Positions 36,787 through 51,443 of a DNA stretch of 64,000 bases are shown one piece after another (positions within the stretch are counted from its first letter, which is position 1; the number at the start of each line of letters is the position of its first letter). The notes beneath the pieces were generated by a model that worked only from the letters and a program-made list of their open reading frames with translations, was not told the DNA's origin and made no database searches. A program made the translations under genes and the position numbers. Source of the DNA: an uncultured bacterium (GTDB taxonomy: Bacteria > Fidelibacterota > Marinisomatia > SCGC-AAA003-L08 > JACNLC01); the NCBI GenBank assembly GCA_964527215.1, contig CAZGNZ010000001.1, positions 129,276-193,275 of the forward strand. The letters are read 5' to 3'.

Positions 36787-37993
36787 GTTTTTTGTGCTCC
36801 AATTCTTCTATCACTGGGAAATGAATGACAAAAAACCGGTATACCAGAATCAGCAGTGAAATGAATCCAACAGTGACCAGTATCTCGGTGATTGCAGGAA
36901 TATACCTGGACTCGGCATATGGGGGCTGATACCCGACGATGAATACATTGACCCGATTAAGGACCACACCAACTACGACTGCCGCAGCGCCGCTGAACAG
37001 CCAGATGATTTGTTTCCGAAATCTGCGGCTTGACAAAACCACAATGGGATATATCACGCCAATGAGCATCTCTGCATTGAAGAACCAGGACTCCACAGTT
37101 CCCTCAAGAACATAGTGAAAAGTCCCGCGGTTCACCATATCCAGAGTTTTGGCAAACAGATAAATCCACAGCAGCAGTGGCAGGTAACGGGCATACTGAC
37201 TTAAAATTGATATTTCCGGTTTCAATTTGAAAGACCATGATGCCAGCAGGGATTCAAAAATCACCATCGCGATTCCCACGGCAAAGGCGGACAGGAGAAA
37301 AAGGAGCGACAGAATGGGTGTGTGCCAGAGAGGGTGCAGTTTCGAAGGCACAATCACCATCAGCGTACCCAGCGAGCTTTGATGCATACAGGACAGCACC
37401 ACCCCCAAAATGATAAATATAAACATAGCCTTGCCGAATGTGTTGTCCAGGAATTTGAGCAGTCCTTCCGTGGCGTTATTCAGGCTCTTCATGATACCCG
37501 GAAGATTCACCCGTGATCGAAAGCGTTCAGTCAGAATGGGAATAAACTCAATATAAAGTACTGTCAGGTAACTGACAACACAGATGCCGACTTCAAACAA
37601 GGCTGAGTTGCCCTGCCACATTGAAGGAAGCAGAACATGCCATATCCAGTAGTAGCGACCGAGATCAATCACCACTCCCAAAGCCACAAAGGTATATCCC
37701 AGCATGGCAGTGAGCAGTGCCGGCCGGGTAAGTACCGCGTAGCGCTCGCGATGCATGATGTGGGCAATGAAGCTGGAGGTAAATCCACCGGCTGCAAGGG
37801 CCACACCGCAGGCCACATCAATCCCAATCCAGATACCCCACGGATACTGACCGTCAAGGTTCGTGGCAGCTTCAAGACTGAAAACAAAACGGTAGAATGC
37901 ACTGGCAAGCCCAAGGGCGGCCAGCGCAGTGAGAATCCAGACTCCAGGCGTAAAATAGGGGATACGTTTGACGGGGAGGACGGCAGTGGACAT
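36779..37993 (-). CDS. NrfD/PsrC-family integral membrane quinone-interacting subunit
   Basis: A 404-aa polytopic protein. …NLDGQYPWGIWIGIDVACGVALAAGGFTSSF… is the typical NrfD/HmcC/DsrP/ActC-type N-terminal signature. The ATG overlaps the FeS-subunit stop. Confidence 0.85.
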   Translation of the reverse strand: MSTAVLPVKRIPYFTPGVWILTALAALGLASAFYRFVFSLEAATNLDGQYPWGIWIGIDVACGVALAAGGFTSSFIAHIMHRERYAVLTRPALLTAMLGYTFVALGVVIDLGRYYWIWHVLLPSMWQGNSALFEVGICVVSYLTVLYIEFIPILTERFRSRVNLPGIMKSLNNATEGLLKFLDNTFGKAMFIFIILGVVLSCMHQSSLGTLMVIVPSKLHPLWHTPILSLLFLLSAFAVGIAMVIFESLLASWSFKLKPEISILSQYARYLPLLLWIYLFAKTLDMVNRGTFHYVLEGTVESWFFNAEMLIGVIYPIVVLSSRRFRKQIIWLFSGAAAVVVGVVLNRVNVFIVGYQPPYAESRYIPAITEILVTVGFISLLILVYRFFVIHFPVIEELEHKKHA

Positions 37994-38901
37994 TATTCTT
38001 CCTCCTTATTGTATAGTTTCATTGCCAGGCCCAGCAAACCGGCCAGAAGAATCGGTCCACTGAATCCTTTGAAAATACCATGCTGAATGGATTCAGTCAG
38101 GTGCGCGGGGCAGTCACTGGACAGTACCGGGAGGTCAACCTCCTCAAAGGGCACATTTGAGATGTACATCCAGCTGGTGCCGCCGACTTCATGTTCACCG
38201 TAAACATGATCCACATAGCGGTCCGGGTGTGTTCGAATACGTTCATGAGCGAGTTCAAGCAGCTCGCTCCTTTTTCCGAAAACCATCACTTCACGCGGGC
38301 AGATCGAAACGCAGGCCGGGAGTTCACCGGTTTCAATGCTCTGTTCAAAGCAAAGTCCGCATTTCATGACCTTGGGTGTCAGGGCATTGCTGTATTCATA
38401 CTGGGGAATTTGGAAGGGGCAGGCAACCATGCAGTAACGACAGCCGATACACTTGCTGGCGTCATATGTAACCGGCCCCTTCGGATTTTTTTCCAGAGCG
38501 CCTACAATACAGGCAGAAACACAAGCAGGATGCTCACAGTGCATGCACTGTACTTTTACATCCAGCGGGAAGCCGTCGATACCTTTTCCGGGATATCGGT
38601 TAACCACGGTGTACTGGTGGTCTGACGGCCGCCGAAATTCTTCCATAACAGAGGGATCGTCATACGAAGCAATGTCATCATGCGGCAGTCCATTGTTTTC
38701 TGCACATGCATATTCACATTTCCGACATCCGATACAAAGAGTCAGGTCAGACAGAACTCCTATCCTATCCGGATCAAGCATGGCATCATGCGTGGCCTTC
38801 TGGGCAGAAGTAATGTGCGTATTGGTGTGGGAAGGGACGGTGCTCGCTGCTGCAGTCCCGGATAAAAGTCCCACTGCCTTAAAGAATGATTTTCGATCCA
38901 T
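37993..38901 (-). CDS. Tat-exported 4Fe-4S ferredoxin-type subunit (NrfC/PsrB/HybA/HmcB-like) with a C-terminal TM anchor
   Basis: It has a Tat-like leader (MDRKSFFKAVGLLSGTAAAS, an RK variant). Cys clusters are CIGCRKCEYAC, CMHCEHPACVSAC, CIGCRYCMVACP and CGLC…CVSICP. The C-terminal helix is GPILLAGLLGLAMKL. Confidence 0.85.
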   Translation of the reverse strand: MDRKSFFKAVGLLSGTAAASTVPSHTNTHITSAQKATHDAMLDPDRIGVLSDLTLCIGCRKCEYACAENNGLPHDDIASYDDPSVMEEFRRPSDHQYTVVNRYPGKGIDGFPLDVKVQCMHCEHPACVSACIVGALEKNPKGPVTYDASKCIGCRYCMVACPFQIPQYEYSNALTPKVMKCGLCFEQSIETGELPACVSICPREVMVFGKRSELLELAHERIRTHPDRYVDHVYGEHEVGGTSWMYISNVPFEEVDLPVLSSDCPAHLTESIQHGIFKGFSGPILLAGLLGLAMKLYNKEEE

Positions 38902-38915
38902 GGTTGAATATTCCT

Positions 38916-40895
38916 TTACTTCCGGTTGTTTTCAGAAATATGTGACAGCTCTTTCATTTTCTTTAATTCGTTTTTTAAATCTCTTTCCATTTCTGCTTTG
39001 GCCTCTTCAACATAATCCGGATGCTCATGTGCATACATGTCTTCAGGCATCTTTCCGGTAAGCCATGACGGATTCATGGGATACACTTCCGGATTGAAAA
39101 CAGTCGAATAGAAATGCCAGATGGCAATAGCCAGTGTGGCAAGCCAGGCTTCCCAGTAGTGGACCACCAATGCCACATCCAGGACACCTTTCGGGAAAAA
39201 CTGAATAAAATAATTGTCAAACCACAGCAGCAGGCCGCTGACGATCATCACAACAGTACCCCAGACCAGCGCCCAGTATTCTGCTTTTTCAACGTAGCCG
39301 AATCTTTTAAACCGCGGAGATGTTTTTGACAGACCCAGATAAAATGCAATTCTGTGACCGAATTGAGTAAAATCAAGCAGTCTGGGCCACATATCCACAA
39401 GGAACTGGCGGCCGCGTCGGGTAAACAGAAAGATCGTGTGCCACAATACCGTTATAATAAACAGAACGGCAGCATAGCGATGGGCCAGACCGCGCATCTC
39501 AAATCCGCCTTCCCAACCGAAGAAGGTTTTTGCCATCCAGGACTCGCTGAAACGCAGTGAAAAACCGGTAATGACCAGTGCAATAAACGAAACCATTAAA
39601 AAAGTGTGCTGCCATACTTCATGCAGCTTCATTCGGCGAATTTGGGGTTTTTTGATGACAAGGCGAAGCTGGCGATACAGGTCCAGAATCCAGTGTATCA
39701 CCATAAAACCGATAATAATGACTATGGCAACGATATATATTTTTTCAACGATATCCGCCACGGTAGTCTGCAGACCTGTACCCGAAACACTGTGAATGGC
39801 AGTGCTGGCCAGTTTGGCCGAGATTCCGGGGTGACATTCACCACAGGTCGCTCTCAGATTGTTGGGGTGAACGGTTGAGCTGGGATCCGTGCTTGGCAGG
39901 ATTCGGTGGACGCCATGGCAGGATGCGCAGTTGGCTACATGCGTGTCGCCCGCCTTACTCTTTAATCCGTGATAAGAGTCAACAAAAGTATTCAGCCGTC
40001 CTGTCGGCAATCCGTATTTTTCATTAAGCCGGGTGGATTCATGGCAGGGAGAGCAGGTTGCTTCGGCAAGCCTTGCCGCGGATACGGGAGATCGGGGATC
40101 TGAGGGTGAAATAATGCCGTGTTCCCCGTGACAGTCCGTACAGACCGGGGCATCCGTTTCTCCTCTGTCAACCAGCTTACCGTGTATGCCGTCCATGAAA
40201 TCATTTTCGATTCCTCTATGACATTTTCCACAGGTCTGAGGAATATTGAAGTGATTTATTGCGGATTCAGGATGACCGGGTGAATAGATATGGTGCGAGC
40301 TGCCGCCTGAACTGTGACAGTCATCACAGGTTGCCGCGACATAAATCCCGCCTGTTGTGGCTTTTCCATGAACACTGTTGGAATACATTTCAACCGGATG
40401 CGACAAAAGCAGATCATACTGATTGATGAGGTCCAGGTTTTCGTGGCATCTTCCGCAGGTGGCGGGAAGATTGGTAGGATGCACCAGAGAATGCTTTATA
40501 TCCGGAGGCAGTACCTCGTGGGTGCCGTGGCAGTCAGCGCAGGAGGGGATATCTCCGCACTCCCCGACAATTTCACGTCCGTGAGCCTGATACTCTTCGG
40601 ACTGGTCATCATGGCAGGTTCGGCAGCCCTCACAGCCGACATCCAGATAGGCCTCTTCATGAGGGTAATACTCCTTATCCTGGTGACAGTCCTGACACTC
40701 AAGATCTTCATGGATGGAATGCGAAAGATCGTCTTGAATAACTGTCCCGTGAATTCCCGTTTCGTGACAGTCGCTGCATGAATCCGAATCAATTTCTTCA
40801 GCCTCTTCGCCAGCTGCCGGAAAAGCGAAACAGCCTAAAATGAGAGAAAAAAAGATCAGTAAACGGTGTGTATCGATTTGTTTGAGCAAGTGCAT
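38916..40895 (-). CDS. Fusion protein: 11-haem cytochrome c (periplasmic) plus C-terminal membrane b-type cytochrome domain (CbcL-like)
   Basis: It has a signal peptide and 11 CxxCH motifs (CSDCH…CGECH). These are followed by 4-5 TM helices with conserved His (…EVWQHTFLMVSFIALVITGFSLRF…AHRYAAVLFIITVLWHTIFLF…VHYWEAWLATLAIAIWHFY…). That region resembles the FdnI/HydC (Ni/Fe-hydrogenase b-type cytochrome) family. Confidence 0.85.
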   Translation of the reverse strand: MHLLKQIDTHRLLIFFSLILGCFAFPAAGEEAEEIDSDSCSDCHETGIHGTVIQDDLSHSIHEDLECQDCHQDKEYYPHEEAYLDVGCEGCRTCHDDQSEEYQAHGREIVGECGDIPSCADCHGTHEVLPPDIKHSLVHPTNLPATCGRCHENLDLINQYDLLLSHPVEMYSNSVHGKATTGGIYVAATCDDCHSSGGSSHHIYSPGHPESAINHFNIPQTCGKCHRGIENDFMDGIHGKLVDRGETDAPVCTDCHGEHGIISPSDPRSPVSAARLAEATCSPCHESTRLNEKYGLPTGRLNTFVDSYHGLKSKAGDTHVANCASCHGVHRILPSTDPSSTVHPNNLRATCGECHPGISAKLASTAIHSVSGTGLQTTVADIVEKIYIVAIVIIIGFMVIHWILDLYRQLRLVIKKPQIRRMKLHEVWQHTFLMVSFIALVITGFSLRFSESWMAKTFFGWEGGFEMRGLAHRYAAVLFIITVLWHTIFLFTRRGRQFLVDMWPRLLDFTQFGHRIAFYLGLSKTSPRFKRFGYVEKAEYWALVWGTVVMIVSGLLLWFDNYFIQFFPKGVLDVALVVHYWEAWLATLAIAIWHFYSTVFNPEVYPMNPSWLTGKMPEDMYAHEHPDYVEEAKAEMERDLKNELKKMKELSHISENNRK

Positions 40896-40920: not shown

Positions 40921-41385
40921 TCATGATGTGTCCGTACCAGTCGTGTATCTCAGGTACCGCTTTAAATTCCTATATGGTTCAAGATTTCGATATACCTCAC
41001 ATTCTCTGCAGCTGGATTTCGATAAACTGTCTGCAGCAAGCCAACAGGGCCCGGTGATTGATGTGACTGCACTGCACTGTGCATTGCCTCCAGAATTGCA
41101 TCCCCGAATATTCCAGCAGGGAATCAGTGCCAGGAGCGCTTTTATGCCGGCAATATTCAATCCCTGCTTTTCGATCAGGAAGCGAATATGGGTCAGGCGC
41201 TTAATATCGTTCACCGAATACAAACGATGTTTTGTCCTGGTCCGCTGTGTCAGTATCAGCCCGTTATTTTCATAAAGCCGAAGCGTGTGAACAGAAACCC
41301 CGATTATTTCCGCTGCTATTCCAATGGTAAAAACCGGATGGTCTTCTTCCAGCAGTTTATTTTCTTTGCGAGGTTTCAAATCCAT
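40921..41385 (-). CDS. MerR-family transcription regulator with a C-terminal Cys-rich two-CW-like domain (paralog 1)
   Basis: The HTH is …FTIGIAAEIIGVSVHTLRLYENNGLILTQRTRTKHRLYS…. The tail is …LALIPCWNIRGCNSGGNAQCSAVTSITGPCWLAADSLSKSSCRECEVYR…. I chose the ATG at 41385; the track's TTG at 41391 is possible. Confidence 0.8.
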   Translation of the reverse strand: MDLKPRKENKLLEEDHPVFTIGIAAEIIGVSVHTLRLYENNGLILTQRTRTKHRLYSVNDIKRLTHIRFLIEKQGLNIAGIKALLALIPCWNIRGCNSGGNAQCSAVTSITGPCWLAADSLSKSSCRECEVYRNLEPYRNLKRYLRYTTGTDTS

Positions 41386-41404
41386 CAACAATAAACTATA
41401 AAGT

Positions 41405-41545: not shown

Positions 41546-41570
41546 AAAAAGGGAGAGGTCGTCCTCTCCC
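41546..41570 (-). terminator. Rho-independent terminator downstream of the 1022-aa cytochrome gene
   Basis: On the minus strand it reads GGGAGAGG-ACGA-CCTCTCCC followed by TTTTTCATTTT. Confidence 0.65.
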
Positions 41571-41814
41571 TGTTGTTAACTTTTTTATCTGCATACCGGT
41601 TTCAACACTCCGATGTTGGTTCTTCAGAAAAACGTTTCCAGTCAGGAATCTTCTTCTGAAAATCAAACATCAGTGATCAGTCCCCAGTTGGGGAATTGGA
41701 AATGCAGCGTGAGTGCTCGTCCTTTCAGCGTCGGATTCGGAAATTCGATTCAAAGAGTTTTCCGGAAAACCGATCGGGTTGAACCAATTCTCACTCGCTG
41801 AAATGGTCCAACTG

Positions 41815-44800
41815 CTACTTCAGCAGCATAACCTTTCTGGATTCTGTGACGGTTTCCGTGATCAAACGTATGATGTAGACACCGCTTGCCTGACCGGAAG
41901 CATCCCAGTTCATGGAATGATATCCAGCCGGCATATTTCCACTGAACAGAGAGGTGATTTCCCTTCCCATGGCATCGTAAACGATAATTTCCAGTCTGCT
42001 GTCCTCAGGCAAGGAGAAATCAACAGTAGTGACAGGGTTGAAGGGATTGGGATATGCAGCGCTGAGTGCAAACTCATCCGGGATGGAATTCACCACCGCA
42101 AACACACCGTTGCCGCTCCAGTCGGCAGTCAGCATGGTTTCAACCTGAACAAGACCGGTATAATACAATAGGATATCTTCAGTCTCACTGCCGTTGGTGT
42201 TTACACCGACCAGGCGGGTATCTGAATGATCAACCAGCCAGCCGTCGGGCAGGTTTGAAGATGTGATTACGAGGTCACCCTGGAAACTGATTTCAAAACC
42301 GGCAATTTCCCCGTCAGACGTGATTTTCATCTCTCCGCCGCCAACCTGCAGCTGAGCTTCTGAAACAGGATTTAGACGCAAAACGTCATTACCAAGGATG
42401 TGGGCGACCACAGCCACAACATCCAGAATATCAATGGCTCCGTCTCCGTTCCAGTCACCTGCATAATCAATATAACTGGTGTGTTCCAAGTGACCCAGAA
42501 TTACACTGACAATCTGAACAATATCAAGAATGTCAATATTGAAATCGCCGTTCACATCACCGGCATCACCCACCATCACTGATTCCAGAGGTGAATTTTC
42601 GGACTCATTCTCATGAACATCCGTAGCCGTGATTGAATACATGTACTCACCGCCTGACGACAGGCCAACATCCTGAAAACTGCTGGTGGCGCTGTAGCCG
42701 ATCAACTCACCGTTTCGGTAGACTGTGAAATACTGAAAATCCGCATCCTGCGGCTCATCCCAGCTGATTTCAACAGACTGATTTCCATAGACTGCCAGGA
42801 ATCCGGACGGAACGGTTGGTGCAAGATTGTCGACAGAGTATCCTTCTGCAACGGTGGATTCGTATATCATCCCTGCCTGGGAAATCGAATACACCTGGAA
42901 TGAAGTCAGAGCATTGTCAACAGATGTGGAATCAAACAATGTGGGCACTACCAATGAGTACCGGTCGCTGCCGTCCGCAGGATGATCCCCGACAAGAGTC
43001 CATGTATCATCATAGGCATCATACCGTTTAATCGTATAGAACTCCACCGGGTCAGGCGCGATGCCGTCATTAACAAATGCATCCCAAATCACTTTGACCT
43101 GGCCTCCCTGGTCATTGGGAATATCATCAATTGAGACGATATCGCCATCGAGAGCACCGTTCTGCATGGCGGTTATGGATGCATTCAGCAATGCAACGGT
43201 AAAGGCCGGGTTGTGAATGCCGTAGCTGTGATCATAATACACCATGTCATAGTTGAAAGCGGCCTTCAATTCGGTCAGCGACCATGTTTCATCCACATCG
43301 TCATGGGGATCATAATGAGTTGTGTCGTCGGAATGGGGCAGCATGGCTCCTAATATGTCAAGGAGTCCGTGAACCTCGTGCTGCAGCCCTTCAGGTGTGC
43401 CGTCGCCGTCAAGATCCGCATTGCCGTCAACATAAAACATTTTTTCATCAAATGAATCACCCACATCACCGTGACAGTCAGTGCAGATGGCTACATTGTC
43501 AACGCCCTCTTCCGTAACAACCGAGAATGAATGCCCGCCGACCAGCAGCGAATGTCCTTCATCATCGGTCATCGGCGAACCCATATGACATGACGTGCAT
43601 GAATTCTCAATGCCGGCCAGATGAGGTGAGGTGGGCAGATCAAGTCCAAAAGTGATCGCATTGGTTGCCGCCAGCATATCTGCCTGCGGAACATAATGCG
43701 GACCGTAATGTGAATGCGGCTCATCGGAGTAGGAGTCTGCGTCACGGCGGCCTTGATGACAGTTCATGCAAAGCTTTCCGGATCCGCCCTGGGTGACCAT
43801 TTCTCCGTTGTTCAGCTCAACATCCGCCAGAGTACGTATCTGATACATGTTTTCAGCACTGTGCGGTTCATGACAGGTGGCACAGGTGATCGGCATATAA
43901 CTGGGATCGAAATCGGGATCATCGGTTTCAACGCCGTCAACATACTGTATAAATCCGGTTCCGGTATGACATCTGACACAGCTTTCCCTGCCGGGTCCGG
44001 TCGGGTATGATGTGGGTGCTGCATGACCGGAAATATCCCACTGCTCCGGATATACATGATAATGACCGTCATCGTGGCAGTAGGCACAATTTGCGGATTC
44101 CAGGTTGGATACCATGCGGTTATCGGACGTTTGACCCATATGAGCACTGCCCGGTCCATGACAGCTTTCACACTGAATCCGACCCAGCTGCATTGCATCA
44201 GGGTAAAAATCATAAAGCAGATCAAACACACCCGGGAAGAGATGACCGTCCTCTGAGCCGTAATTGTCAACCAGATCAGCCGAGTCAGGAAATACAAATT
44301 CCCAGTCATCAAATCCATCGTTATCCGCATAAATATCGTGACCGGTTGTATGGCAGTCCAGACAGTAGCTGGCATAGTGGTCACTCAGTGTTCCATTCAT
44401 TCCTTCCTCAAAGATGGAGTAGTGACCAGTCATTTCCCATTCCGAATGCTGATCTGAGTGACACATACCGCACAAACCGTCATCTATTCCAATATAGTGG
44501 GCTGCATTAACAGTGACCTCGGCCATAACACCATTATCAGAAAATTCAATAATATATGTACCCTCCAGATCCGGCATGAAAGAAATTACCTGAGTATATT
44601 CATCAGGATTTTCTGAAGGACCCGGTACCGAGGCAGAACCGGCAGGTGCAGACAAAACTGTCCAGACAGGGGCTGTCAGAACAGCATCGGATGTACCCTG
44701 AAGGAACATGGTGGTTTCAACACCGACATTCAATAATCCCGTATATCGATACTCATATATGTCCAACGTATCCAGACCGGCTTCGCGGGGCGAAACACCA

Positions 44801-44883
44801 TATGGTTCCACAGTTACTGTCTGTGACAGCAGGACAGTGAACATGCATATTATTACAATTGGTAGCAGTGGTGCATTTTTCAT
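41815..44883 (-). CDS. Cell-surface multihaem cytochrome c: 9 CxxCH motifs, beta-sandwich/FN3-like region, dockerin-like repeats and a T9SS C-terminal sorting domain
   Basis: It has a signal peptide (MKNAPLLPIVIICMFTVLLSQ) and an AGGAGG Shine-Dalgarno. Motifs are CGMCH, CLDCH, CESCH, CAYCH, CVRCH, CATCH, CMNCH, CTSCH and CTDCH. The dockerin-like pair is DVNGDFNIDILDIVQIV…/DWNGDGAIDILDVVAVV… (nt ~42391-42570). The C-terminal tail (nt ~41818-42084) is …SAAYPNPFNPVTTVDFSLPEDSRLEIIVYDAMGREITSLFSGNMPAGYHSMNWDASGQASGVYIIRLITETVTESRKVMLLK. Confidence 0.9.
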   Translation of the reverse strand: MKNAPLLPIVIICMFTVLLSQTVTVEPYGVSPREAGLDTLDIYEYRYTGLLNVGVETTMFLQGTSDAVLTAPVWTVLSAPAGSASVPGPSENPDEYTQVISFMPDLEGTYIIEFSDNGVMAEVTVNAAHYIGIDDGLCGMCHSDQHSEWEMTGHYSIFEEGMNGTLSDHYASYCLDCHTTGHDIYADNDGFDDWEFVFPDSADLVDNYGSEDGHLFPGVFDLLYDFYPDAMQLGRIQCESCHGPGSAHMGQTSDNRMVSNLESANCAYCHDDGHYHVYPEQWDISGHAAPTSYPTGPGRESCVRCHTGTGFIQYVDGVETDDPDFDPSYMPITCATCHEPHSAENMYQIRTLADVELNNGEMVTQGGSGKLCMNCHQGRRDADSYSDEPHSHYGPHYVPQADMLAATNAITFGLDLPTSPHLAGIENSCTSCHMGSPMTDDEGHSLLVGGHSFSVVTEEGVDNVAICTDCHGDVGDSFDEKMFYVDGNADLDGDGTPEGLQHEVHGLLDILGAMLPHSDDTTHYDPHDDVDETWSLTELKAAFNYDMVYYDHSYGIHNPAFTVALLNASITAMQNGALDGDIVSIDDIPNDQGGQVKVIWDAFVNDGIAPDPVEFYTIKRYDAYDDTWTLVGDHPADGSDRYSLVVPTLFDSTSVDNALTSFQVYSISQAGMIYESTVAEGYSVDNLAPTVPSGFLAVYGNQSVEISWDEPQDADFQYFTVYRNGELIGYSATSSFQDVGLSSGGEYMYSITATDVHENESENSPLESVMVGDAGDVNGDFNIDILDIVQIVSVILGHLEHTSYIDYAGDWNGDGAIDILDVVAVVAHILGNDVLRLNPVSEAQLQVGGGEMKITSDGEIAGFEISFQGDLVITSSNLPDGWLVDHSDTRLVGVNTNGSETEDILLYYTGLVQVETMLTADWSGNGVFAVVNSIPDEFALSAAYPNPFNPVTTVDFSLPEDSRLEIIVYDAMGREITSLFSGNMPAGYHSMNWDASGQASGVYIIRLITETVTESRKVMLLK

Positions 44884-45283
44884 GAAGTAACCTCCTGTTG
44901 TTGGTCGGAATTAGGATTAATTCCTTTAAGATAGGATGAGTGAATTTAGCAGATGAGTTATTGTGATAACAAGACCTAAATGTATTAAATATAATATAAT
45001 GTTTATCAATAAATGCAATTAATATAAATAATAGATAATAATTATAATAAATATTGAAATACACCCAATGCAAATATTTCAGTGTAGGATATTTATGGGA
45101 TTGCTTAATTCAAGGATATAATTTGAAAATTTAAACCGAATTTTTCATGAGAATATCTGTGCGTAAACTGTTTCATAATTTCCGGTTTATGATAGTTCTG
45201 GTTGATTCTGCACAGACAGTCAGCAGACTGATTTTAAATTAGCTCGATATTTGTTCTCATTGTACTGTCCGGTACAATGTCGA

Positions 45284-45530
45284 TGAATTTCCCCGCCCGT
45301 CAGCTGACGGGTGGGGTATCAGTAAACGATCGGGTCATTATATGTCTCGCCGCCACGCCAAATGACGGATTTTCAATAACCGGCGGGGAATCCACCATGT
45401 CACACTTGTCAGTCAGGAGACGGATTAAAAATCCGCCAACCGGCGGATTCATATCTCTTTGCAGGCCTTTCATAATCAATCGTCTCCGCCATTTCATTTC
45501 GAAACCTCATGAAACATCCGGACTAAAAAG
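45284..45530 (-). repeat. REP-like hairpin element cluster, copy 2 (core module inverted relative to copies 1 and 3)
   Basis: On the + strand it reads ATGAATTTCCCCGCCCGTCAGCTGACGGGTGGGGTATCAGTAAACGATCGG…CGCCGCCACGCCAAATGACGGATT, the reverse complement of the copy-1/3 consensus. Extra hairpins follow (CCGGCGGGGAATCC…, AATCCGCCAACCGGCGGATT). Confidence 0.8.
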
Positions 45531-45534
45531 ACCA

Positions 45535-45566
45535 GACCGGATTGAACCGGTCTGGAAATTGGAATC
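45535..45566 (-). terminator. Rho-independent terminator after the 833-aa cytochrome gene
   Basis: On the minus strand it reads CCAGACCGG-TTCAAT-CCGGTCTGG followed by TCTTTTTAG, 28 nt downstream of the stop at 45594. Confidence 0.65.
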
Positions 45567-45593
45567 TGAAGTTCAGCTGGAATACGTTTTGGG

Positions 45594-48095
45594 TCAGAAA
45601 AAGGTGCCCACGATAATCAGTGTCAGAAGCAGGAAACCAACGATCAGGAAAATCGCACCAATAATCAGCAGAAGCTTTTTTAATACGGGATGGGTGGGGT
45701 TTATCAGGGCTTCCTGATATTCAGAATCACTGAGGAGGTTTTTTTCTCTGGGCCGCTCTTTGGCGAATCTTTCCTCTGTTACCCGGCCTGTGAATATGAC
45801 TTCATCCATGGGGAATGCGCCCGGGCGCAGATGGGTGTTGAAAAAATGCACCGTAAAAATGAATGCAGTTGCAAGCAGAGCTTCTTCCGAATGGATAATA
45901 TGCGCGGCATTGATCAGCCAGCCGGGAAATGCCCGTGCAAACTGTTCCGGAAACCAGAGTGTCAGACCGCTGATTCCAATAACAATCATGCCCCAGAAAA
46001 CTGCAAAGTAATCGAATTTTTCCCAGTATGTCCAGCGGCCGAACTCCGGTTCTTTTTTCCGCAATCCGATGAAATAAGCCAGATGATTGAAGAAATCAGA
46101 AAAATCCTGGAGATTTGGTACTAAACTGTCAGGTCCCCAGAACAGTCCTTTTTGTTTTCTCACTGTCGCTTTATAGATCAGCATGAATACATGGATGAAC
46201 ATAACGACAAACAGAATTACTGCAGCCACCCGGTGAGCCAATGCGGCAGCATGAAATCCGACAATATTGTGAACAAACCAGTTTGCCATCTCTGAATGAC
46301 TGTATTTTAGAGGCAGACCGGTTCCTGCCAGCACCAGAAACCCACCGGCCATGAAAAAGTGAAGAATTCGGTCGAACAGGTTGAATCTCTTTACGCGACG
46401 GCTGGTTTTTGGAGGAGGATGGATGGGGCCGTGTCTTAACCTGTGGATCATGAGTCGAATAAGCCAGAGCAGTGTATGGCCGCCAAATACAACAAACACG
46501 CCGCCAAGGAGCCAGATCATAAACAGATGTATGCCGTGAAGGACAGGGTTTTCCTTCTCAGTCATTGGAGTGTAATGTTCCAGATACTGAACAAAATTCT
46601 CACTGACATTTTCATGGCACTGGCTGCAGGTTTCAATAATGCGTTCTTTTCCTATACTGGAGGCCGGGTGATCGGAAGGCAGAATTGAATGATTGTCGTG
46701 ACAGGAGACACAGGTGGCAAATTCTTCACCCTGATATCCCAGCTGATACATTTGACCGTGATAAGATGTGTTGTATCCTTCCACGACATGTGCGTTCAGC
46801 TGAAATTTCATGGTTAGACTGCGGTCCGCATGGCAGCGGCTGCAAAGGTCAATGGTGGATTGTCCGATGAATTTCTCATCCGATTTCTGGATTCTGCGTT
46901 CATCGTGACACTCGATACAGCCCGGAGCTTCAAAATGACCCTTTTGTCTGGCGATATAATGAGAGGACTGCTCGTATTCTTTCTGCACGTCCGGATGACA
47001 GTCCGCGCAGGATTTTTCCAGAGCCTGGTCCTGGGAATGCTCCGGTGCCATGTAGTGATATGTATGGCAGTCTCCGCAGTTGGAGGCTTCCCCGTTTGCT
47101 ATTTTCTCCAGTTCGGTTCTGTGAATAATACCATGGGCATCATTTTCACCAATGATAAGATCCTGCCCGTGGCAGCGAATACAGACACGGTCCAGTTCGA
47201 TATCAAACACCGTGGTTCGAGTGGTACCCACCATTTCGGTCTCATGACCGGTGTGACATACAACACACGTTGTCATTCGGGGATCCTCAAGGCGGTCCGG
47301 CTGGTGGATGGATGCTTCATAGCCGGAATGACACTTCGTACAGACCATATCCAGTCTTGCAACAGACACTCGACTGTCCGGATCACGCGGGGAGAGTACT
47401 TTGTGGCTGGCGTGACAGTCAGAGCATATAGGCGCTTCAAGATTGCCCTGAGTCAGCTGTTCATAATGCCCGCTGTTGAAGTAGTTTTCAACGTTTTCCC
47501 GGTGACAGATTCGGCAGGATTCCGCGAGGTGAATTTTCCATCCAAATTCGGTATACTGCTGCTTTTCATGCTTATTGTGCGGTGAATGGCAGGAGACGCA
47601 GGTGACATCACCGGTCTGGGTGTCTTCATGCCAGTGTGCTGACTGCAGGAACTCATCCAGGATATCCTGATGACAGGTTCCGCAGACCTGCCGCGGCTGA
47701 CCTTGCCAACTGACTTTATGAGCTCCGTGGCAGTCAGAACAAGTCGGCAAAGCGGTATATCCTTTTGCCCGCAGCGGAGCGAAAAATCCGTCTATGAACT
47801 CTTCCTGGGCATCTTCATGACAGATACCGCAGTCAGGTATGATCAGACGTTCTTCATGAGGGAAATCATCTATGCCGTCTAAATCTTCATGACAGTCAAT
47901 GCAATCAAAGTCCTCATGCGGGGTTCCTGATAAATGATCCGATGTCACATGCAGAGACACTTCCACACCATGTTTCACTTGTGAGAGTTTCTCATCGTCA
48001 TGACAGGCTTCACAGGTTTCATTGTCCTGCATTAGAACTGGGGTCGTTAAAATTCCGACAAGACCGGCAAACAGCAGAATTCTATTCCGAAGCAT
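45594..48095 (-). CDS. Fusion protein: 17-haem cytochrome c plus C-terminal membrane b-type cytochrome domain (second CbcL-like paralog)
   Basis: It has a signal peptide and 17 CxxCH motifs by hand count (CEACH … CSQCH). TM helices with conserved His follow (…GIHLFMIWLLGGVFVVFGGHTLLWLI…RILHFFMAGGFLVLAGTGLPLKY…AHRVAAVILFVVMFIHVFMLIY…HIIHSEEALLATAFIFTVHFFNTHL…). Confidence 0.85.
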   Translation of the reverse strand: MLRNRILLFAGLVGILTTPVLMQDNETCEACHDDEKLSQVKHGVEVSLHVTSDHLSGTPHEDFDCIDCHEDLDGIDDFPHEERLIIPDCGICHEDAQEEFIDGFFAPLRAKGYTALPTCSDCHGAHKVSWQGQPRQVCGTCHQDILDEFLQSAHWHEDTQTGDVTCVSCHSPHNKHEKQQYTEFGWKIHLAESCRICHRENVENYFNSGHYEQLTQGNLEAPICSDCHASHKVLSPRDPDSRVSVARLDMVCTKCHSGYEASIHQPDRLEDPRMTTCVVCHTGHETEMVGTTRTTVFDIELDRVCIRCHGQDLIIGENDAHGIIHRTELEKIANGEASNCGDCHTYHYMAPEHSQDQALEKSCADCHPDVQKEYEQSSHYIARQKGHFEAPGCIECHDERRIQKSDEKFIGQSTIDLCSRCHADRSLTMKFQLNAHVVEGYNTSYHGQMYQLGYQGEEFATCVSCHDNHSILPSDHPASSIGKERIIETCSQCHENVSENFVQYLEHYTPMTEKENPVLHGIHLFMIWLLGGVFVVFGGHTLLWLIRLMIHRLRHGPIHPPPKTSRRVKRFNLFDRILHFFMAGGFLVLAGTGLPLKYSHSEMANWFVHNIVGFHAAALAHRVAAVILFVVMFIHVFMLIYKATVRKQKGLFWGPDSLVPNLQDFSDFFNHLAYFIGLRKKEPEFGRWTYWEKFDYFAVFWGMIVIGISGLTLWFPEQFARAFPGWLINAAHIIHSEEALLATAFIFTVHFFNTHLRPGAFPMDEVIFTGRVTEERFAKERPREKNLLSDSEYQEALINPTHPVLKKLLLIIGAIFLIVGFLLLTLIIVGTFF

Positions 48096-48261
48096 ATTTT
48101 ACCTTTCGATAGATTCCGGTAATTGTATATTTGGATATTACTATATGTAAGAGGATAAGAGTTCCGGAACCGGATATAAAACTACAGAGATTTTATTATC
48201 CGATTAAACAGAAAAGTATGGCTGGGAGAAAACCTTGTATGGGTGAGTTGTGTCGGTTAAA

Positions 48262-48310
48262 AAGTAAAAATGCCATACCTGTTCAGGAAAACAGGTATGG
48301 CATTTTTTTC
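48262..48310. terminator. Strong bidirectional-looking hairpin terminator between the c554-like gene and the 833-aa gene
   Basis: The perfect 14-bp stem ATGCCATACCTGTT (48270-48283) / AACAGGTATGGCAT (48290-48303) is flanked by an A-run and a T-run. On the minus strand it follows the stop at 48328. Confidence 0.8.
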
Positions 48311-48327
48311 TGGAGTGTAAACCGAAG

Positions 48328-48912
48328 TTATTTCTTTTTATCCTCCGGTGTGGGATGAGCGACTTCTTTGATACGCTCAGCAAAAACGAACTTTTTATAG
48401 GTCGGGCTTTTTTCATTGTGACAGGATATGCAAAGAGCTTCATTTGGTTCAATGAGACCCACAGAAGCGCCGTCAGTAGTGCCGACCGTAATGGCCTTCA
48501 TCACTTTTTTAGATTTATATTCACTGCCCGGACCGTGACAGCCTTCGCAGCCGACGCCTTTCAAACCGGTCATCCGCTTGACATCCTTGGTGGGCTTGCC
48601 TTTGTCCGTTGTCTGGGCCCAGAACTTTTCATCCTTCACCTCGAACCCGCCTGATCCAAAACCAGTCGCATGACAGGAGAGACATTCAGGTGCCTGCCAG
48701 GCCGGTACATTCAGTTTCATCTCTTCTGCAATCTTCTTTGACTGTTCGGATTTCAGGGTTTCCATTGCACCAATATGCAGACCTTTTTCCCAGGCACCAA
48801 ACTGGTGTTTATGGCACATTTTGCATTTGGCTGAACCAACATATTCAAACTTTGCATCCTGTGCCCACATGAATGGTACACAGAGCAAAAAAAGTATCCA
48901 AAATCGTTTCAT
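48328..48912 (-). CDS. Tetrahaem cytochrome c, cytochrome c554-like
   Basis: MKRFWILFLLCVPFMWAQ is a signal peptide, followed by …VGSAKCKMCHK…W…H. Motifs are CKMCH, CLSCH, CEGCH and CISCH. I trimmed the start from the track (49026) to the ATG at 48912, which gives a proper signal peptide. Confidence 0.85.
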   Translation of the reverse strand: MKRFWILFLLCVPFMWAQDAKFEYVGSAKCKMCHKHQFGAWEKGLHIGAMETLKSEQSKKIAEEMKLNVPAWQAPECLSCHATGFGSGGFEVKDEKFWAQTTDKGKPTKDVKRMTGLKGVGCEGCHGPGSEYKSKKVMKAITVGTTDGASVGLIEPNEALCISCHNEKSPTYKKFVFAERIKEVAHPTPEDKKK

Positions 48913-48938
48913 AACTAACTTCCTCACTTTTTCATCCG

Positions 48939-49370
48939 TTAGAAAATGGGATTTTCCGCCCCATGGCACTGATGGCAGCCCATGGCAACTGGTCCATCGC
49001 TGTTTAGACTGTGGCACTGCCAGCATGTTTCCGCCTGGTCCTCGGAACCGTTGGGATCCATCCCTGCGCCGTGAAAATCATCAGTTCCGGATCTCAGATG
49101 ATCGATGGTACCCGGGTGGCCGCTGGCACCTCCGGCATGACACATGGTACATGAAACACCGGAATGTCCGCCATCCAGAAAAGTACCGTGACAGGTCTTG
49201 CATGACTCGAGTCCTTCCCAACCACGGGTCGCAAGCATCTGGCCGTGAAAATCAACACTGTTTTGATTCATCCAGGTGTCGCTGTGGGTATCTGGCTGAA
49301 CAGATTCAGTACAGGACCAGAAGCTCAGAGCGGTGACGATCAAAATGGTTAACGCGGTATATCTTTTCAT
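48939..49370 (-). CDS. Small tetrahaem cytochrome c lipoprotein
   Basis: MKRYTALTILIVTALSFWSC is a lipobox-type signal. Motifs are CKTCH, CTMCH, CWQCH and CHQCH. A GGAGG Shine-Dalgarno sits 6 nt upstream. The start was trimmed from the track (49466), and it lies directly after the upstream stop. Confidence 0.85.
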   Translation of the reverse strand: MKRYTALTILIVTALSFWSCTESVQPDTHSDTWMNQNSVDFHGQMLATRGWEGLESCKTCHGTFLDGGHSGVSCTMCHAGGASGHPGTIDHLRSGTDDFHGAGMDPNGSEDQAETCWQCHSLNSDGPVAMGCHQCHGAENPIF

Positions 49371-49371
49371 A

Positions 49372-50199
49372 TTAACCTCCATGACAGCGTTGGCAGTAGT
49401 GCGGCTGATGACAGGACTGACATACTTCGGGTGTGGATTCTGCGGCATCTGCATGCATTCCCGCATTGCCGTTGATTATGCCCCAGGTTGTCAGATTGTG
49501 ATCGGCTGGCATAATCATCCGCTGTATGTGACAGGACTGACAGTCATTTTCAATTTGATGGCAGGTCATGCATTCAACTGCATCCAGCCGGGCTTCCAAT
49601 CCGTGAGCCACAATATAGGCCGGTGGATGAGTACTTTTTTCAAAACCCGAATGGTGATGACAGTCATCGCAGAATTTTTCCGTATGGCACATGCTGCAGC
49701 TGGCGGCCTGCGGGTGATTGACGGACAGACCGTGGTCCTCATCCCAGGTGATGTCATGGCTGGCAGGTTCATGTGACTGATGGCATTGTGAACAGGCTGC
49801 CCTTGGCCATGGCTGGCGCAGCGCTTCACCGTCATCTGAGGTGATTCCGCTGTGGCAGGTTTCACAATTTGGTGTGGATGGCCGGTGTGCGGCATGGGAA
49901 AAGTCCACGCCGGATGTGGATCCCATCAGGGGATATGTGTCGGCCTCATCCACATTGGAATGGCATAGTTCACATTCATCTTCCACATCGTGACATTCGG
50001 AGCAGAAATCCATATCCGGCAGATATCCCGGTGTGAGAGATTCAGAGTCTGAAACACCGCTGTGACAGTAGTCGCAGGATAGTTCGACATCCGTAATATG
50101 AAGATCATGCGGAAATATGATGTGATCCGGATCCATTGAGAATCCGTAAGCCGCTAACAAGCTGACTGTCAGCAATGCTTTACAGAGTATACGAAACAT
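49372..50199 (-). CDS. Periplasmic 11-haem cytochrome c (c3/c7-type packing)
   Basis: MFRILCKALLTVSLLAAYG is a signal peptide. There are 11 CxxCH motifs in 275 aa (CDYCH, CSECH, CELCH, CETCH, CSQCH, CSMCH, CDDCH, CMTCH, CQSCH, CQSCH, CQRCH). A GGAGG Shine-Dalgarno precedes the gene, which overlaps the barrel-gene 3' end by 20 nt. Confidence 0.85.
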   Translation of the reverse strand: MFRILCKALLTVSLLAAYGFSMDPDHIIFPHDLHITDVELSCDYCHSGVSDSESLTPGYLPDMDFCSECHDVEDECELCHSNVDEADTYPLMGSTSGVDFSHAAHRPSTPNCETCHSGITSDDGEALRQPWPRAACSQCHQSHEPASHDITWDEDHGLSVNHPQAASCSMCHTEKFCDDCHHHSGFEKSTHPPAYIVAHGLEARLDAVECMTCHQIENDCQSCHIQRMIMPADHNLTTWGIINGNAGMHADAAESTPEVCQSCHQPHYCQRCHGG

Positions 50200-51358: not shown

Positions 51359-51443
51359 AATCTCATTCATCAAAAAGGTTGAAAGGGAGCAAACCCACAT
51401 TCATGGCATTTGCTCCCTGAAAAAGTTCGCTTTGGCGAAAGGC

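What the first reader, a model, noticed from the sequence alone, without database searches (positions are those of the whole stretch)
41815..44883. Multihaem cytochrome addressed to the cell surface by a type IX secretion C-terminal domain, with dockerin-like repeats
Seen in the sequence:
- The 1022-aa protein has a Sec signal and nine CxxCH motifs in its N-terminal half.
- Beta-sandwich (FN3-like) segments follow.
- A pair of Ca-binding dockerin-type repeats is present (DVNGDFNIDILDIV / DWNGDGAIDILDVV).
- The last ~89 aa are …YPNPFNPVTTVDFSLPEDSRLEIIVYDAMGREI…AGYHSMNWDASGQASGVYIIRL…KVMLLK.

Established knowledge: this tail pattern is the type-A T9SS C-terminal sorting domain of FCB-group bacteria. 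It directs cargo across the outer membrane and usually leads to covalent surface attachment.

Inference: T9SS is being used to display a redox-active multihaem protein on the cell surface. That is a different solution from the T2SS-dependent lipoprotein cytochromes of Shewanella and Geobacter. The protein would be the terminal (mineral- or partner-facing) component of the conduit. The dockerin-like pair suggests docking to another surface scaffold.
Basis: partly seen in the sequence, partly recalled or inferred. Interest (0 to 1): 0.8.

Follow-up and report, generated by a model that had tools for sequence, protein, structure and literature searches.

The report
Type IX-secreted nine-haem surface cytochrome
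This gene encodes a nine-haem cytochrome, related to the surface iron reductase OcwA of a Gram-positive bacterium, that carries a type IX secretion tail and a dockerin plus cohesin-like docking cassette, which points to an undescribed way for Marinimicrobia-type bacteria to put electron-transfer proteins on their surface.

Summary
ORF 41815-44883(-) encodes 1022 aa with nine CxxCH motifs, a dockerin above Pfam's cut-off, and a terminal T9SS type A sorting domain (TIGR04183, 40.8 bits against a cut-off of 23).

What the analysis adds:
- **Haem domain:** it is not MtrC/OmcA-like. It is an OcwA-type nonahaem (family profile against PDB 6I5B, E 1.3e-18).
- **Family:** at least 866 relatives were found. 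Of the best 120, 118 end in the sorting domain. They come from Marinimicrobia, Calditrichota, KSB1, Ignavibacteria and Bacteroidota.
- **Dockerin cassette:** only the six closest relatives carry the dockerin. It comes together with a roughly 100-aa cohesin-like module ("X"). The dockerin-X-CTD cassette ends 341 representative cargo proteins, and some of those also carry cohesin-like modules.
- **Neighbourhood:** here the gene is monocistronic inside an 18-kb multihaem cluster. In seven of ten other genomes examined it stands alone.

Not shown: T9SS machinery in this genome, surface location, the direction of electron flow, and dockerin binding.

No open-access paper in the library links T9SS with multihaem cytochromes. 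I rate this a new variant of a known kind, interest about 0.68.

The parts
44824..44883 (-). Sec-type signal peptide (aa 1-20). The mature N-terminus is probably Gln21.
   Evidence: Judged by inspection of the hydrophobic N-terminus. Gln21 is conserved in at least 90% of the family. No predictor was run.
44500..44823 (-). N-terminal beta-sandwich domain (aa 21-128), conserved across the family, with no family assignment.
   Evidence: The AF2 model shows strands at 23-128 with pLDDT 82-96. Pfam finds no match. OcwA has no counterpart: its alignment begins at query aa 129.
43147..44499 (-). OcwA-type nonahaem cytochrome c domain (aa 129-579): nine CxxCH motifs and a C-terminal three-helix bundle.
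   Evidence: Nine motifs. phmmer against PDB 6i5b_A gives E 1.1e-9, colinear. The family profile gives E 1.3e-18 to 6i5b, 4.2e-10 to 6qvm, 1e-7 to NrfA and 4e-4 to c554. Invariant residues include H276, H396 and M434. Model helices at 500-514, 536-551 and 559-575.
42832..43146 (-). Beta-sandwich domain 1 (aa 580-684), unassigned.
   Evidence: AF2 strands at 582-681. Pfam finds no match.
42568..42831 (-). FN3-like domain (aa 685-772).
   Evidence: PDB sequence and profile matches to FN3 domains: 8pn5 E 3.5e-4, 1k85 E 5.5e-6 and 3mpc E 6e-6. The Foldseek matches of the full model are FN3/Ig arrays.
42376..42567 (-). Type I dockerin (aa 773-836): two Ca-binding loop-helix repeats.
   Evidence: Pfam PF00404 scores 31.8 bits against a cut-off of 22.9. 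Loops DVNGDFNIDILD and DWNGDGAIDILD. PDB dockerins 5nrk and 4uyq match at E ~0.016. AF2 confidence is low here. Present only in P0001-P0006 among the 120 best homologues.
42064..42375 (-). Module X (aa 837-940): a short cohesin-like beta-sandwich that always sits just before the sorting domain.
   Evidence: No Pfam or PDB sequence hit. The AF2 model has pLDDT 87. The Foldseek top six PDB hits are cohesins, E ~1e-3, TM up to 0.58. hhalign against the GFQF cohesin-like modules of related cargo gives 96% probability and E 3.3e-9 over 52 columns. It occurs in 341 representative proteins, nearly always ~85-190 aa from the C-terminus.
41815..42063 (-). T9SS type A C-terminal sorting domain (aa 941-1022, ending KVMLLK), plus the stop codon.
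   Evidence: TIGR04183 scores 40.8 bits against 23. PF18962 scores 32.1 against 27. P945-N-P-F-N-P950, K1017 and K1022 are invariant in the family. AF2 predicts a beta-sandwich at 951-1020.
44884..45593 (-). A 710-bp upstream region: terminator of the preceding gene (45532-45555), an AT-rich promoter region with three 16-nt direct repeats (44977-45054), a 26-nt palindrome (45291-45316), and an AGGAGG ribosome-binding site.
41550..41571 (-). Terminator-like hairpin downstream of the gene, which makes the gene monocistronic.
   Evidence: 9-bp stem with 6 G-C pairs, followed by a T run.
40921..41391 (-). MerR-family regulator with a conserved Cys-rich tail. It is the first gene of the downstream cytochrome operon.
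   Evidence: Pfam MerR_1 E 2.6e-17. Homologues lie next to related cytochrome genes in L087 and L006. The Cys pattern is conserved.
35620..40895 (-). Context operon: an 11-haem + cytochrome b fusion (CbcL-like), an NrfC-like 4Fe-4S protein, an NrfD-like membrane protein and a 13-haem cytochrome. These are candidate inner-membrane quinol/periplasm electron modules.
   Evidence: Pfam, NCBIfam, haem counts.
45594..53824 (-). Context: a 17-haem + cytochrome b fusion, a c554-like tetrahaem, an 11-haem cytochrome, a 406-aa candidate porin with no family, a rhodanese lipoprotein and an 8-haem cytochrome.
   Evidence: The gene order multihaem - rhodanese - 'porin' - multihaem - c554 - multihaem - cytochrome b is conserved in L090.

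Best explanation
The gene encodes a secreted, haem-loaded electron-transfer protein built from three layers.

1. **An OcwA-type nonahaem module.** It is exported by Sec and would receive its haems in the periplasm.
2. **A stalk of beta-sandwich and FN3 domains.**
3. **An addressing tail.** The type A C-terminal domain hands the folded protein to the type IX translocon. By analogy with studied T9SS cargo, the domain is then cut off and the protein is either linked to surface lipopolysaccharide or released.

In this lineage a dockerin plus a cohesin-like module (X) sits just before the cleaved domain. This cassette would tie the cytochrome, in a Ca-dependent way, to cohesin-bearing T9SS cargo or to other copies of itself.

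On the surface the haem chain would pass respiratory electrons to insoluble or large acceptors (metal oxides, sulfur, partner cells), or take them up. In this genome the electrons would come from the neighbouring cytochrome b-fused multihaem quinol modules, the periplasmic multihaems and a candidate porin-cytochrome pair.

**Shown:** the domain composition, the homology to OcwA, the size and phyletic range of the family, the recurrence of the cassette, and the gene context.
**Inferred:** export by T9SS, surface retention, dockerin binding, and the path and direction of electrons.
For: - **ORF and motifs:**
- **Sorting domain and dockerin:** both score above curated cut-offs.
- **OcwA homology:** E 1.1e-9 with the single sequence and 1.3e-18 with the family profile. 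The match is colinear over aa 129-579. OcwA's distal His-His motif aligns with the family's tHHvyPeqW, CvdCHM is shared, and the three-helix bundle is present.
- **OcwA itself:** it is a cell-surface terminal reductase (PMC6703420). Gavrilov et al. noted that it nests among nonahaems from Gram-negative bacteria (PMC7829351).
- **Family:** at least 866 homologues. Of the best 120, 118 have the C-terminal sorting domain and 105 have exactly nine haem motifs. NCBI names members 'T9SS type A sorting domain-containing protein' in Marinimicrobia, Calditrichota, KSB1, Melioribacteraceae and Bacteroidota.
- **Export of a folded protein:** T9SS cargo fold in the periplasm before export (PMC10202324), which is compatible with periplasmic haem attachment.
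- **Module X:** its best structural matches are cohesins, and it is related to GFQF cohesin-like modules at 96% hhalign probability.
- **Cassette:** dockerin-X-CTD ends 341 representative proteins. These include cargo with 1-4 cohesin-like modules and one module that passes Pfam Cohesin. Members that carry a name are from Marinimicrobia or the FCB group.
- **Context:** an 18-kb multihaem cluster, partly conserved in L087. L007 holds a comparable cluster.
Against: - No T9SS core gene lies in the window, and none could be searched for in the genome.
- In seven of ten other genomes examined the gene stands alone. The conduit context is therefore lineage-specific.
- The candidate porin has no family match and only three homologues. 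The evidence for beta-strand amphipathicity is weak.
- OcwA-type proteins have two open-coordination haems and reduce nitrite and hydroxylamine in vitro. An enzymatic role cannot be excluded.
- The dockerin is modelled with low confidence.
- X gives no Pfam Cohesin hit. Its Foldseek E-values are marginal.
- With four spacer domains between the anchor end and the haem domain, it is not obvious how the haems would meet an outer-membrane conduit.
Confidence: 0.62

Rival explanations
1. It is an extracellular or surface enzyme, not a mineral-facing wire. The two open-coordination haems of the OcwA-type fold would reduce or oxidise a small or colloidal substrate outside the cell, such as nitrite, hydroxylamine, NO, or sulfur species (polysulfide, S0).
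For: - OcwA reduces nitrite and hydroxylamine, and its fold combines NrfA-like and c554-like halves (PMC6703420).
- The distal-pocket His (H276) is invariant and the HH motif is the family consensus.
- A rhodanese lipoprotein is a conserved member of the neighbouring module.
- One homologue lies near NO-stress genes: qNOR, hemerythrins and Rrf2.
- Most family members are stand-alone genes.
Against: - Small soluble substrates reach the periplasm, so export would not be needed for them.
- OcwA's nitrite turnover is very slow, with kcat about 1 per minute.
- The characterised relatives OcwA and OmhA are surface iron reductases.
- In this window the gene sits among cytochrome b-fused multihaems that are typical of extracellular electron transfer.
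Confidence: 0.2
2. It is released, not anchored. After the C-terminal domain is cleaved, the cytochrome would be shed into the medium or the matrix as a soluble electron carrier, and the dockerin-X cassette would have a different role or none.
For: - T9SS type A cargo can be either anchored or released (PMC10202324).
- No anchoring signal other than the CTD is seen.
- Most family members lack the dockerin-X cassette.
Against: - The cassette is conserved on hundreds of cargo proteins, always just before the CTD, which argues for a function after cleavage.
- Cohesin-like partners exist on other T9SS cargo.
Confidence: 0.12
3. It is a periplasmic cytochrome. The C-terminal beta-sandwich would only resemble a T9SS domain, or the organism would lack a working T9SS, so the protein would stay inside the outer membrane.
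For: - T9SS machinery was not verified here.
- The same stretch also matches the FlgD Ig-like model.
Against: - The score is above the curated TIGR04183 cut-off.
- The domain sits exactly at the C-terminus, with the PNPFNP and K-terminal motifs invariant across five phyla.
- 181 open reading frames with this C-terminal domain were found in the 90-odd loci held, nearly all from FCB-type genomes.
- TIGR04183 proteins are reported as specific to the FCB superphylum (PMC5317091).
Confidence: 0.06

Closest known systems
OcwA of Thermincola potens JR (PDB 6I5B) and OmhA of Carboxydothermus ferrireducens (PDB 6QVM)
   Same: - The nine haem motifs are colinear with OcwA's.
- The distal His-His motif near the second open haem pocket is shared, as are CxxCHM and the C-terminal three-helix bundle.
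- The N-terminal half is c554-like and the C-terminal half is NrfA-like.
- Profile E is 1.3e-18 to OcwA and 4.2e-10 to OmhA.
- Both proteins are cell-surface terminal reductases.
   Different: - OcwA and OmhA come from Gram-positive bacteria. They sit on the cell wall or S-layer and have no outer membrane to cross.
- This protein adds an N-terminal beta-sandwich, two stalk domains, a dockerin, a cohesin-like module and a T9SS sorting domain.
- In this protein the first pocket reads H-Y-H instead of H-H.
MtrC/OmcA (Shewanella) and OmcB-type porin-cytochrome complexes (Geobacter)
   Same: - The proposed role is the same: an outward-facing multihaem at the end of a trans-envelope path.
- The neighbours include cytochrome b-fused multihaems (CbcL-like), a periplasmic 11-haem cytochrome and a candidate porin.
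   Different: - Those proteins are lipoproteins exported by the type II system (own knowledge).
- This protein has no lipobox, nine rather than ten or twelve haems, and a different fold family. It carries a T9SS domain instead.
- The Pfam MtrC/MtrF_II-IV hit (42.5 bits) is spread over four short haem-motif stretches. It is far weaker evidence than the colinear OcwA match.
T9SS type A cargo of Bacteroidota (for example gingipain RgpB, and chitinase ChiA of Flavobacterium johnsoniae)
   Same: - A Sec signal, a folded passenger and a ~75-aa C-terminal beta-sandwich with the PxPF...K motifs. Scores are above the curated cut-offs.
- A Gln at the predicted mature N-terminus, as is common in Bacteroidota (own knowledge).
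   Different: - The passenger is a covalently haem-loaded redox protein.
- The host is Marinimicrobia-like, outside the Bacteroidota in which T9SS has been studied.
- No open-access paper in the library mentions T9SS together with multihaem cytochromes.
Cellulosomal and non-cellulosomal cohesin-dockerin systems (Clostridium thermocellum; Archaeoglobus fulgidus AF2375, PDB 2XDH)
   Same: - A type I dockerin with two complete Ca loops.
- An adjacent module whose best structural matches are cohesins, including the A. fulgidus non-cellulosomal cohesin at TM 0.58.
- Related cargo carry several cohesin-like modules, as scaffoldins do.
   Different: - The carrier proteins are T9SS cargo of Gram-negative FCB bacteria, and the passenger here is a cytochrome rather than a glycoside hydrolase.
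- X is ~100 aa against ~140 aa for a cohesin, and it fails the Pfam Cohesin model.
- No binding has been shown.

Membership tests
T9SS type A C-terminal-domain cargo (TIGR04183 / PF18962) | Match to the curated CTD models above their cut-offs | tested here: met
   TIGR04183 scores 40.8 bits against 23. PF18962 scores 32.1 bits against 27.
T9SS type A C-terminal-domain cargo (TIGR04183 / PF18962) | Domain at the extreme C-terminus, with conserved motifs and a beta-sandwich fold | tested here: met
   The domain spans aa 944-1019 of 1022. PNPFNP, G987, Y1003, K1017 and K1022 are invariant. AF2 predicts strands at 951-1020 with pLDDT 82-89.
T9SS type A C-terminal-domain cargo (TIGR04183 / PF18962) | N-terminal Sec signal peptide | tested here: inconclusive
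   A hydrophobic N-terminus and a conserved Gln21 were seen by inspection. No signal-peptide predictor was available.
T9SS type A C-terminal-domain cargo (TIGR04183 / PF18962) | T9SS core machinery (PorK/L/M/N, SprA/Sov, PorV, PorU/Z/Q) in the same genome | not testable with these tools
   None lies in the 64-kb window. A look for PorU among eight long CTD proteins found only ordinary cargo.
T9SS type A C-terminal-domain cargo (TIGR04183 / PF18962) | CTD-dependent export, cleavage and surface attachment | not testable with these tools
   This needs experiment.
OcwA-type nonahaem cytochromes (NrfA/c554-related clade) | Nine CxxCH motifs colinear with OcwA, with significant sequence similarity | tested here: met
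   phmmer E 1.1e-9. Profile E 1.3e-18, covering query 130-559 against chain residues 15-500.
OcwA-type nonahaem cytochromes (NrfA/c554-related clade) | Two open-coordination haems with distal His-His motifs | tested here: inconclusive
   The first motif aligns: the family has tHHvyPeqW and this protein has H274-Y-H276, with H276 invariant. The second is only roughly placed: H390-S-H392...H396 against OcwA's VHHPH. Haem ligation cannot be read from sequence.
OcwA-type nonahaem cytochromes (NrfA/c554-related clade) | C-terminal three-helix bundle | tested here: met
   AF2 helices at 500-514, 536-551 and 559-575. This region aligns to OcwA residues 422-500.
OcwA-type nonahaem cytochromes (NrfA/c554-related clade) | Structural superposition of the haem domain on 6I5B | not tested
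Type I dockerin (PF00404) | Model match above the cut-off, and two repeats each with a complete Ca-binding loop and a helix | tested here: met
   31.8 bits against 22.9. Loops DVNGDFNIDILD and DWNGDGAIDILD. Model helices at 785-796 and 819-833, but with pLDDT below 50 in places.
Type I dockerin (PF00404) | A cohesin partner that it binds | tested here: inconclusive
   Cohesin-like modules occur on related T9SS cargo. P0190 passes PF00963 at 30.7 bits against 24.1. None was found in this window. Binding is untested.
Cohesin (PF00963), for module X at aa 837-940 | Match to the Pfam Cohesin model | tested here: not met
   No Pfam hit at E up to 10 for X from five proteins.
Cohesin (PF00963), for module X at aa 837-940 | Cohesin fold and homology to recognised cohesins | tested here: inconclusive
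   The Foldseek top six hits are cohesins, but at E ~1e-3 and TM 0.31-0.58. hhalign against GFQF cohesin-like modules gives 96% probability over only 52 of 106 columns.
MtrC/OmcA outer-membrane decahaem lipoproteins | Lipoprotein signal, ten haems in a staggered cross, and two split-barrel domains | tested here: not met
   There is no lipobox and there are nine haems. The best homologues in the PDB are OcwA and OmhA, not MtrC, OmcA or MtrF. The PF22113 hit is made of four short haem-motif stretches.

The most novel reading that the evidence does not exclude
Marinimicrobia and their relatives may organise their surface with a cohesin-dockerin network carried entirely by T9SS cargo. This cytochrome would be a redox subunit of that network. 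Its dockerin would plug into cohesin-bearing T9SS scaffold proteins, or the dockerin of one copy would bind the cohesin-like X module of the next. The result would be multi-cytochrome surface arrays or chains, a cellulosome-like assembly that extends electron transfer beyond the outer membrane.
Probability: 0.15. Interest if true: 0.9.

Novelty: new variant of a known kind. Interest (0 to 1): 0.68.

Why it matters
Known routes that put multihaem cytochromes outside Gram-negative cells use type II secretion of lipoproteins or porin-cytochrome complexes. A large family of at least 866 proteins across at least five FCB phyla, carrying a T9SS sorting domain on an OcwA-type nonahaem, would have three consequences.

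- It would add a third route to the cell surface.
- It would extend T9SS cargo to covalently cofactor-loaded redox proteins.
- It would give a simple sequence marker for predicting extracellular electron exchange in abundant uncultured groups such as Marinimicrobia, Calditrichota and KSB1.

The dockerin-X-CTD cassette, found on 341 representative cargo proteins, also points to a protein-docking system on FCB cell surfaces. I found no description of it in the papers I could search.

All of this can be tested with T9SS-competent hosts such as Flavobacterium johnsoniae.

Tried and rejected
- **Genome-collection scan with the family alignment.** One of the two peptide patterns was the generic CTD motif, so most of the 80 loci were unrelated T9SS cargo. 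Only L007, L008, L011, L012 and L058 held the cytochrome part.
- **Hunt for the T9SS sortase PorU.** Eight long CTD-bearing ORFs from the fetched loci were all ordinary cargo. No SprA-sized ORF without a CTD was present in the loci either.
- **Proteins with 6-13 tandem matches to the X profile (P0233, P0269, P0285, P0288).** They looked like scaffoldins. P0233 and P0285 turned out to be SpaA/prealbumin-repeat proteins. P0269 and P0288 are unrelated repeat proteins with no cohesin, dockerin or CTD hit. All match only part of the X profile. This lead was rejected.
- **Word-index search with the X profile.** It found a single protein. The exhaustive search was needed.
- **Candidate porin at 50180-51400.** No Pfam or NCBIfam hit even at E 10. 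Only three homologues exist. The beta-amphipathicity signal is only about two standard deviations above shuffles. It remains a candidate.
- **X against the cohesin-like module of L009 alone.** hhalign gave E 0.054, which is not significant. It became significant only against an alignment of 14 such modules.
- **Identity of the source organism.** P0121, the porin copy from NCBI on a 258-kb contig, could not be traced to a record.
- **Rfam.** No RNA family was found in the window.
- **Literature.** Six searches combining T9SS terms with multihaem, cytochrome, extracellular electron transfer or Marinimicrobia found nothing relevant.

Full report
**Observation.**
The ORF at 41815-44883 on the minus strand is real. 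It starts with ATG and encodes 1022 aa. It holds exactly nine CxxCH motifs, at aa 138-471, with no variant motifs. Its only other cysteine lies in the signal peptide.

Pfam gives Dockerin_1 at aa 774-829 (31.8 bits against a cut-off of 22.9) and Por_Secre_tail at aa 944-1019 (32.1 against 27). NCBIfam gives TIGR04183, the T9SS type A sorting domain, at 40.8 bits against 23. Both dockerin repeats keep all five Ca-ligand positions.

One of the beta domains (aa ~685-771) is FN3-like by profile matches to solved FN3 domains. Two beta-sandwiches, aa 21-128 and aa 580-684, match no family.

The gene has its own ribosome-binding site. Terminator-like hairpins lie on both sides, so it is probably monocistronic. 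No Rfam family is present in the window.

**What the haem domain is.**
The generic multihaem Pfam models (Cytochrome_C7, MtrC/MtrF_II-IV) hit only in short stretches around haem motifs.

Against the sequences of solved structures, the best match is 6I5B. This is OcwA, the nonahaem cell-surface reductase of Thermincola potens. The match has E 1.1e-9 and runs colinear over aa 129-579.

A profile of 52 family members raises this to E 1.3e-18. It also finds OmhA (6QVM, E 4.2e-10), NrfA for the C-terminal part (E ~1e-7) and cytochrome c554 for the N-terminal part (E 4e-4). That is the composition reported for OcwA (PMC6703420; PMC9250108).

OcwA's distal His-His motif aligns with the family's tHHvyPeqW. 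This protein reads H274-Y-H276, and H276 is invariant. CvdCHM is shared, and M434 is invariant. The AlphaFold model (mean pLDDT 83) has the three C-terminal helices. A structural superposition could not be done.

The protein is therefore an OcwA-type cytochrome, not an MtrC/OmcA-type one.

**The family.**
The homology search returned 866 proteins at E up to 1e-5, and the 120 best were listed. Of those 120:
- 118 end in the sorting domain;
- 105 have exactly nine CxxCH motifs;
- nearly all end in K-M-(I/L)-L-(L/M)-K.

Where a source gives a name it is 'T9SS type A sorting domain-containing protein'. The organisms are Marinimicrobia/Fidelibacterota, Calditrichota, KSB1, Melioribacteraceae and Bacteroidota.

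Relatives outside the FCB group (L008, L011, L012, L058) have the haem module but not the sorting domain. Gavrilov et al. had noted that OcwA sits in a clade of nonahaems from Gram-negative bacteria (PMC7829351).

No open-access paper in the library mentions T9SS together with multihaem or c-type cytochromes in this sense.

A T9SS review states that cargo fold in the periplasm before export (PMC10202324). That is compatible with periplasmic haem attachment.

**The dockerin and module X.**
Only the six closest homologues (50-57% identity, Marinimicrobia) carry the dockerin. It comes together with a ~100-aa beta module, X (aa 837-940), inserted between the FN3-like domain and the sorting domain.

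The evidence on what X is, step by step:
- X has no Pfam hit and no PDB sequence hit.
- A model of X alone has pLDDT 87. Its six best Foldseek matches in the PDB are all cohesins, although at E ~1e-3 and TM 0.31-0.58.
- An exhaustive profile search found X in 341 representative proteins, 152 of them at E up to 1e-10. These proteins range from about 80 to 3500 aa, and X almost always sits just before the last ~85 residues.
- The ten such proteins checked with Pfam all have Por_Secre_tail, and nine also have Dockerin_1. Those that carry a name are from Marinimicrobia or the FCB group.
- Several also carry one to four upstream modules with a GFQF motif. One of these modules passes Pfam Cohesin (P0190, 30.7 bits against 24.1).
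- X aligns to an alignment of 14 such modules with 96% hhalign probability, over half its length.

Dockerin-X-CTD is therefore a recurrent tail of T9SS cargo in this lineage, and cohesin-like partners exist on other cargo. No partner was found in this window, and no binding has been shown.

Proteins with 6-13 tandem partial matches to X proved to be unrelated repeat proteins: two are SpaA/prealbumin-repeat proteins, and none has a cohesin, dockerin or CTD hit.

**Neighbourhood.**
On the same strand, the cluster reads as follows:
- 53824 to 45594: an 8-haem cytochrome, a rhodanese lipoprotein, a 406-aa protein without any family (the candidate porin), an 11-haem cytochrome, a c554-like tetrahaem, and a 17-haem + cytochrome b fusion;
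- then the target gene;
- then a MerR regulator, an 11-haem + cytochrome b fusion, NrfC-like and NrfD-like proteins, and a 13-haem cytochrome.

How far this context is conserved:
- A related locus, L087, conserves c554, the 17-haem cytochrome b fusion, the target, MerR, and the 11-haem cytochrome b fusion with NrfC.
- L007 has a 12-haem homologue and a 14-haem lipoprotein near a target-like gene.
- L090 conserves the module from the upstream multihaem (the 8-haem cytochrome here) to the cytochrome b fusion, but without the target.
- In seven other genomes the target homologue stands alone.

The candidate porin has only three homologues and no family match. The left half of the window holds housekeeping and polysaccharide-export genes and no T9SS component.

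**Mechanism proposed.**
The steps would be:
1. Sec export and haem attachment in the periplasm.
2. Recognition of the C-terminal domain by the type IX translocon.
3. Removal of that domain, followed by attachment or release.
4. Ca-dependent docking through the dockerin and X.
5. Electron exchange between the nonahaem chain and an external acceptor or donor.

In this genome the electrons would be fed by the neighbouring quinol-oxidising and periplasmic cytochromes.

What is shown is the domain identities and their conservation. Export, location, docking, the electron path and its direction are inferred.

The main rival reading is an exported enzyme acting on N- or S-compounds. It rests on the two open-haem pockets, the conserved rhodanese, and the stand-alone genes.

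**Verdict.**

This is a new variant of known kinds, combining a surface multihaem reductase, T9SS cargo and cohesin-dockerin docking. It appears not to be described in the accessible literature. Databases, however, already label the family by its sorting domain.

Noticed in passing
window 40921-41391 (-); L087 14150-14665; L006 9217-9687: The MerR-family regulator next to the cytochrome genes has a C-terminal tail with a conserved cysteine pattern (PCW..C..C..PCW..CRxC). The same regulator type lies beside homologous cytochrome genes in two other genomes, and in one of them it is divergent from the T9SS nonahaem gene. It may be a redox or metal sensor for these genes.
   Followed up: partly
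window 51444-52394 (-); L090 9038-9967: The rhodanese lipoprotein inside the cytochrome cluster has a lipobox Cys followed by an acidic run (FSGC-SDDDDDDK; homologue MIGC-ESDDDDK). This resembles the Bacteroidota signal for surface exposure of lipoproteins (own knowledge). The gene order multihaem - rhodanese - unknown 400-aa protein - multihaem - c554 - multihaem - cytochrome b is conserved in L090. It hints at a link to sulfur.
   Followed up: partly
window 50180-51400 (-): A 406-aa secreted protein with no Pfam or NCBIfam family and only three homologues in 5.8 billion proteins. It always sits between the rhodanese and an 11-haem cytochrome. It is a candidate outer-membrane porin of a porin-cytochrome pair, but this is unverified.
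   Followed up: partly
window 45291-45316 and 44977-45054: A 26-nt near-perfect palindrome (CCCCGCCCGTCAG|CTGACGGGTGGGG) lies where the three Logan contigs shown for this gene end, ~410-420 bp upstream of the ATG. It is probably the cause of the assembly breaks. Three 16-nt direct repeats (TAAATGTATTAAATAT-like, spaced ~30 nt) lie in the AT-rich promoter region and could be regulator sites.
   Followed up: partly
window 38916-40895 (-) and 45594-48095 (-): Two fusions of a large multihaem cytochrome c (11 and 17 CxxCH) to a formate-dehydrogenase-gamma/hydrogenase-type cytochrome b membrane domain. They resemble Geobacter CbcL. One is followed by NrfC-like and NrfD-like proteins and a 13-haem cytochrome.
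   Followed up: partly
window 55347-58439 (-) and 58442-63994 (-): A 1030-aa protein with only a weak DUF2490 match, followed by a giant protein of more than 1850 aa that runs off the window. The giant protein has DUF11 repeats, CarboxypepD_reg domains and two OmpA-like peptidoglycan-binding domains. Their function is unexplored.
   Followed up: no
L093 (locus of homologue P0012): This T9SS nonahaem homologue lies next to a divergent sigma-54 activator and 3-8 kb from NO-stress genes (qNOR, hemerythrin/ScdA, Rrf2). This is a possible hint that some family members deal with nitrogen oxides.
   Followed up: no
P0031 (homologue, 1098 aa): A tandem duplication of the whole nonahaem module (18 CxxCH) in front of a single T9SS sorting domain.
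   Followed up: no
L008 9875-12172 and 12222-14369: Two tandem paralogues of the nonahaem module in an unclassified MAG, without a T9SS domain. One of them carries thrombospondin-type Ca-binding repeats near the point where the contig ends. The same passenger appears to be addressed differently in other lineages.
   Followed up: no
L010, L013, L018, L056; P0165, P0168, P0182, P0219, P0229: Dockerin plus a T9SS sorting domain, mostly with module X, occurs on very different cargo. Examples are CotH kinase-like, Laminin_G, cadherin-like, LDL-receptor-like, redoxin and 3-keto-disaccharide-hydrolase-like proteins of up to 3493 aa, in Marinimicrobia, the FCB group and a Gemmatimonadota MAG.
   Followed up: partly
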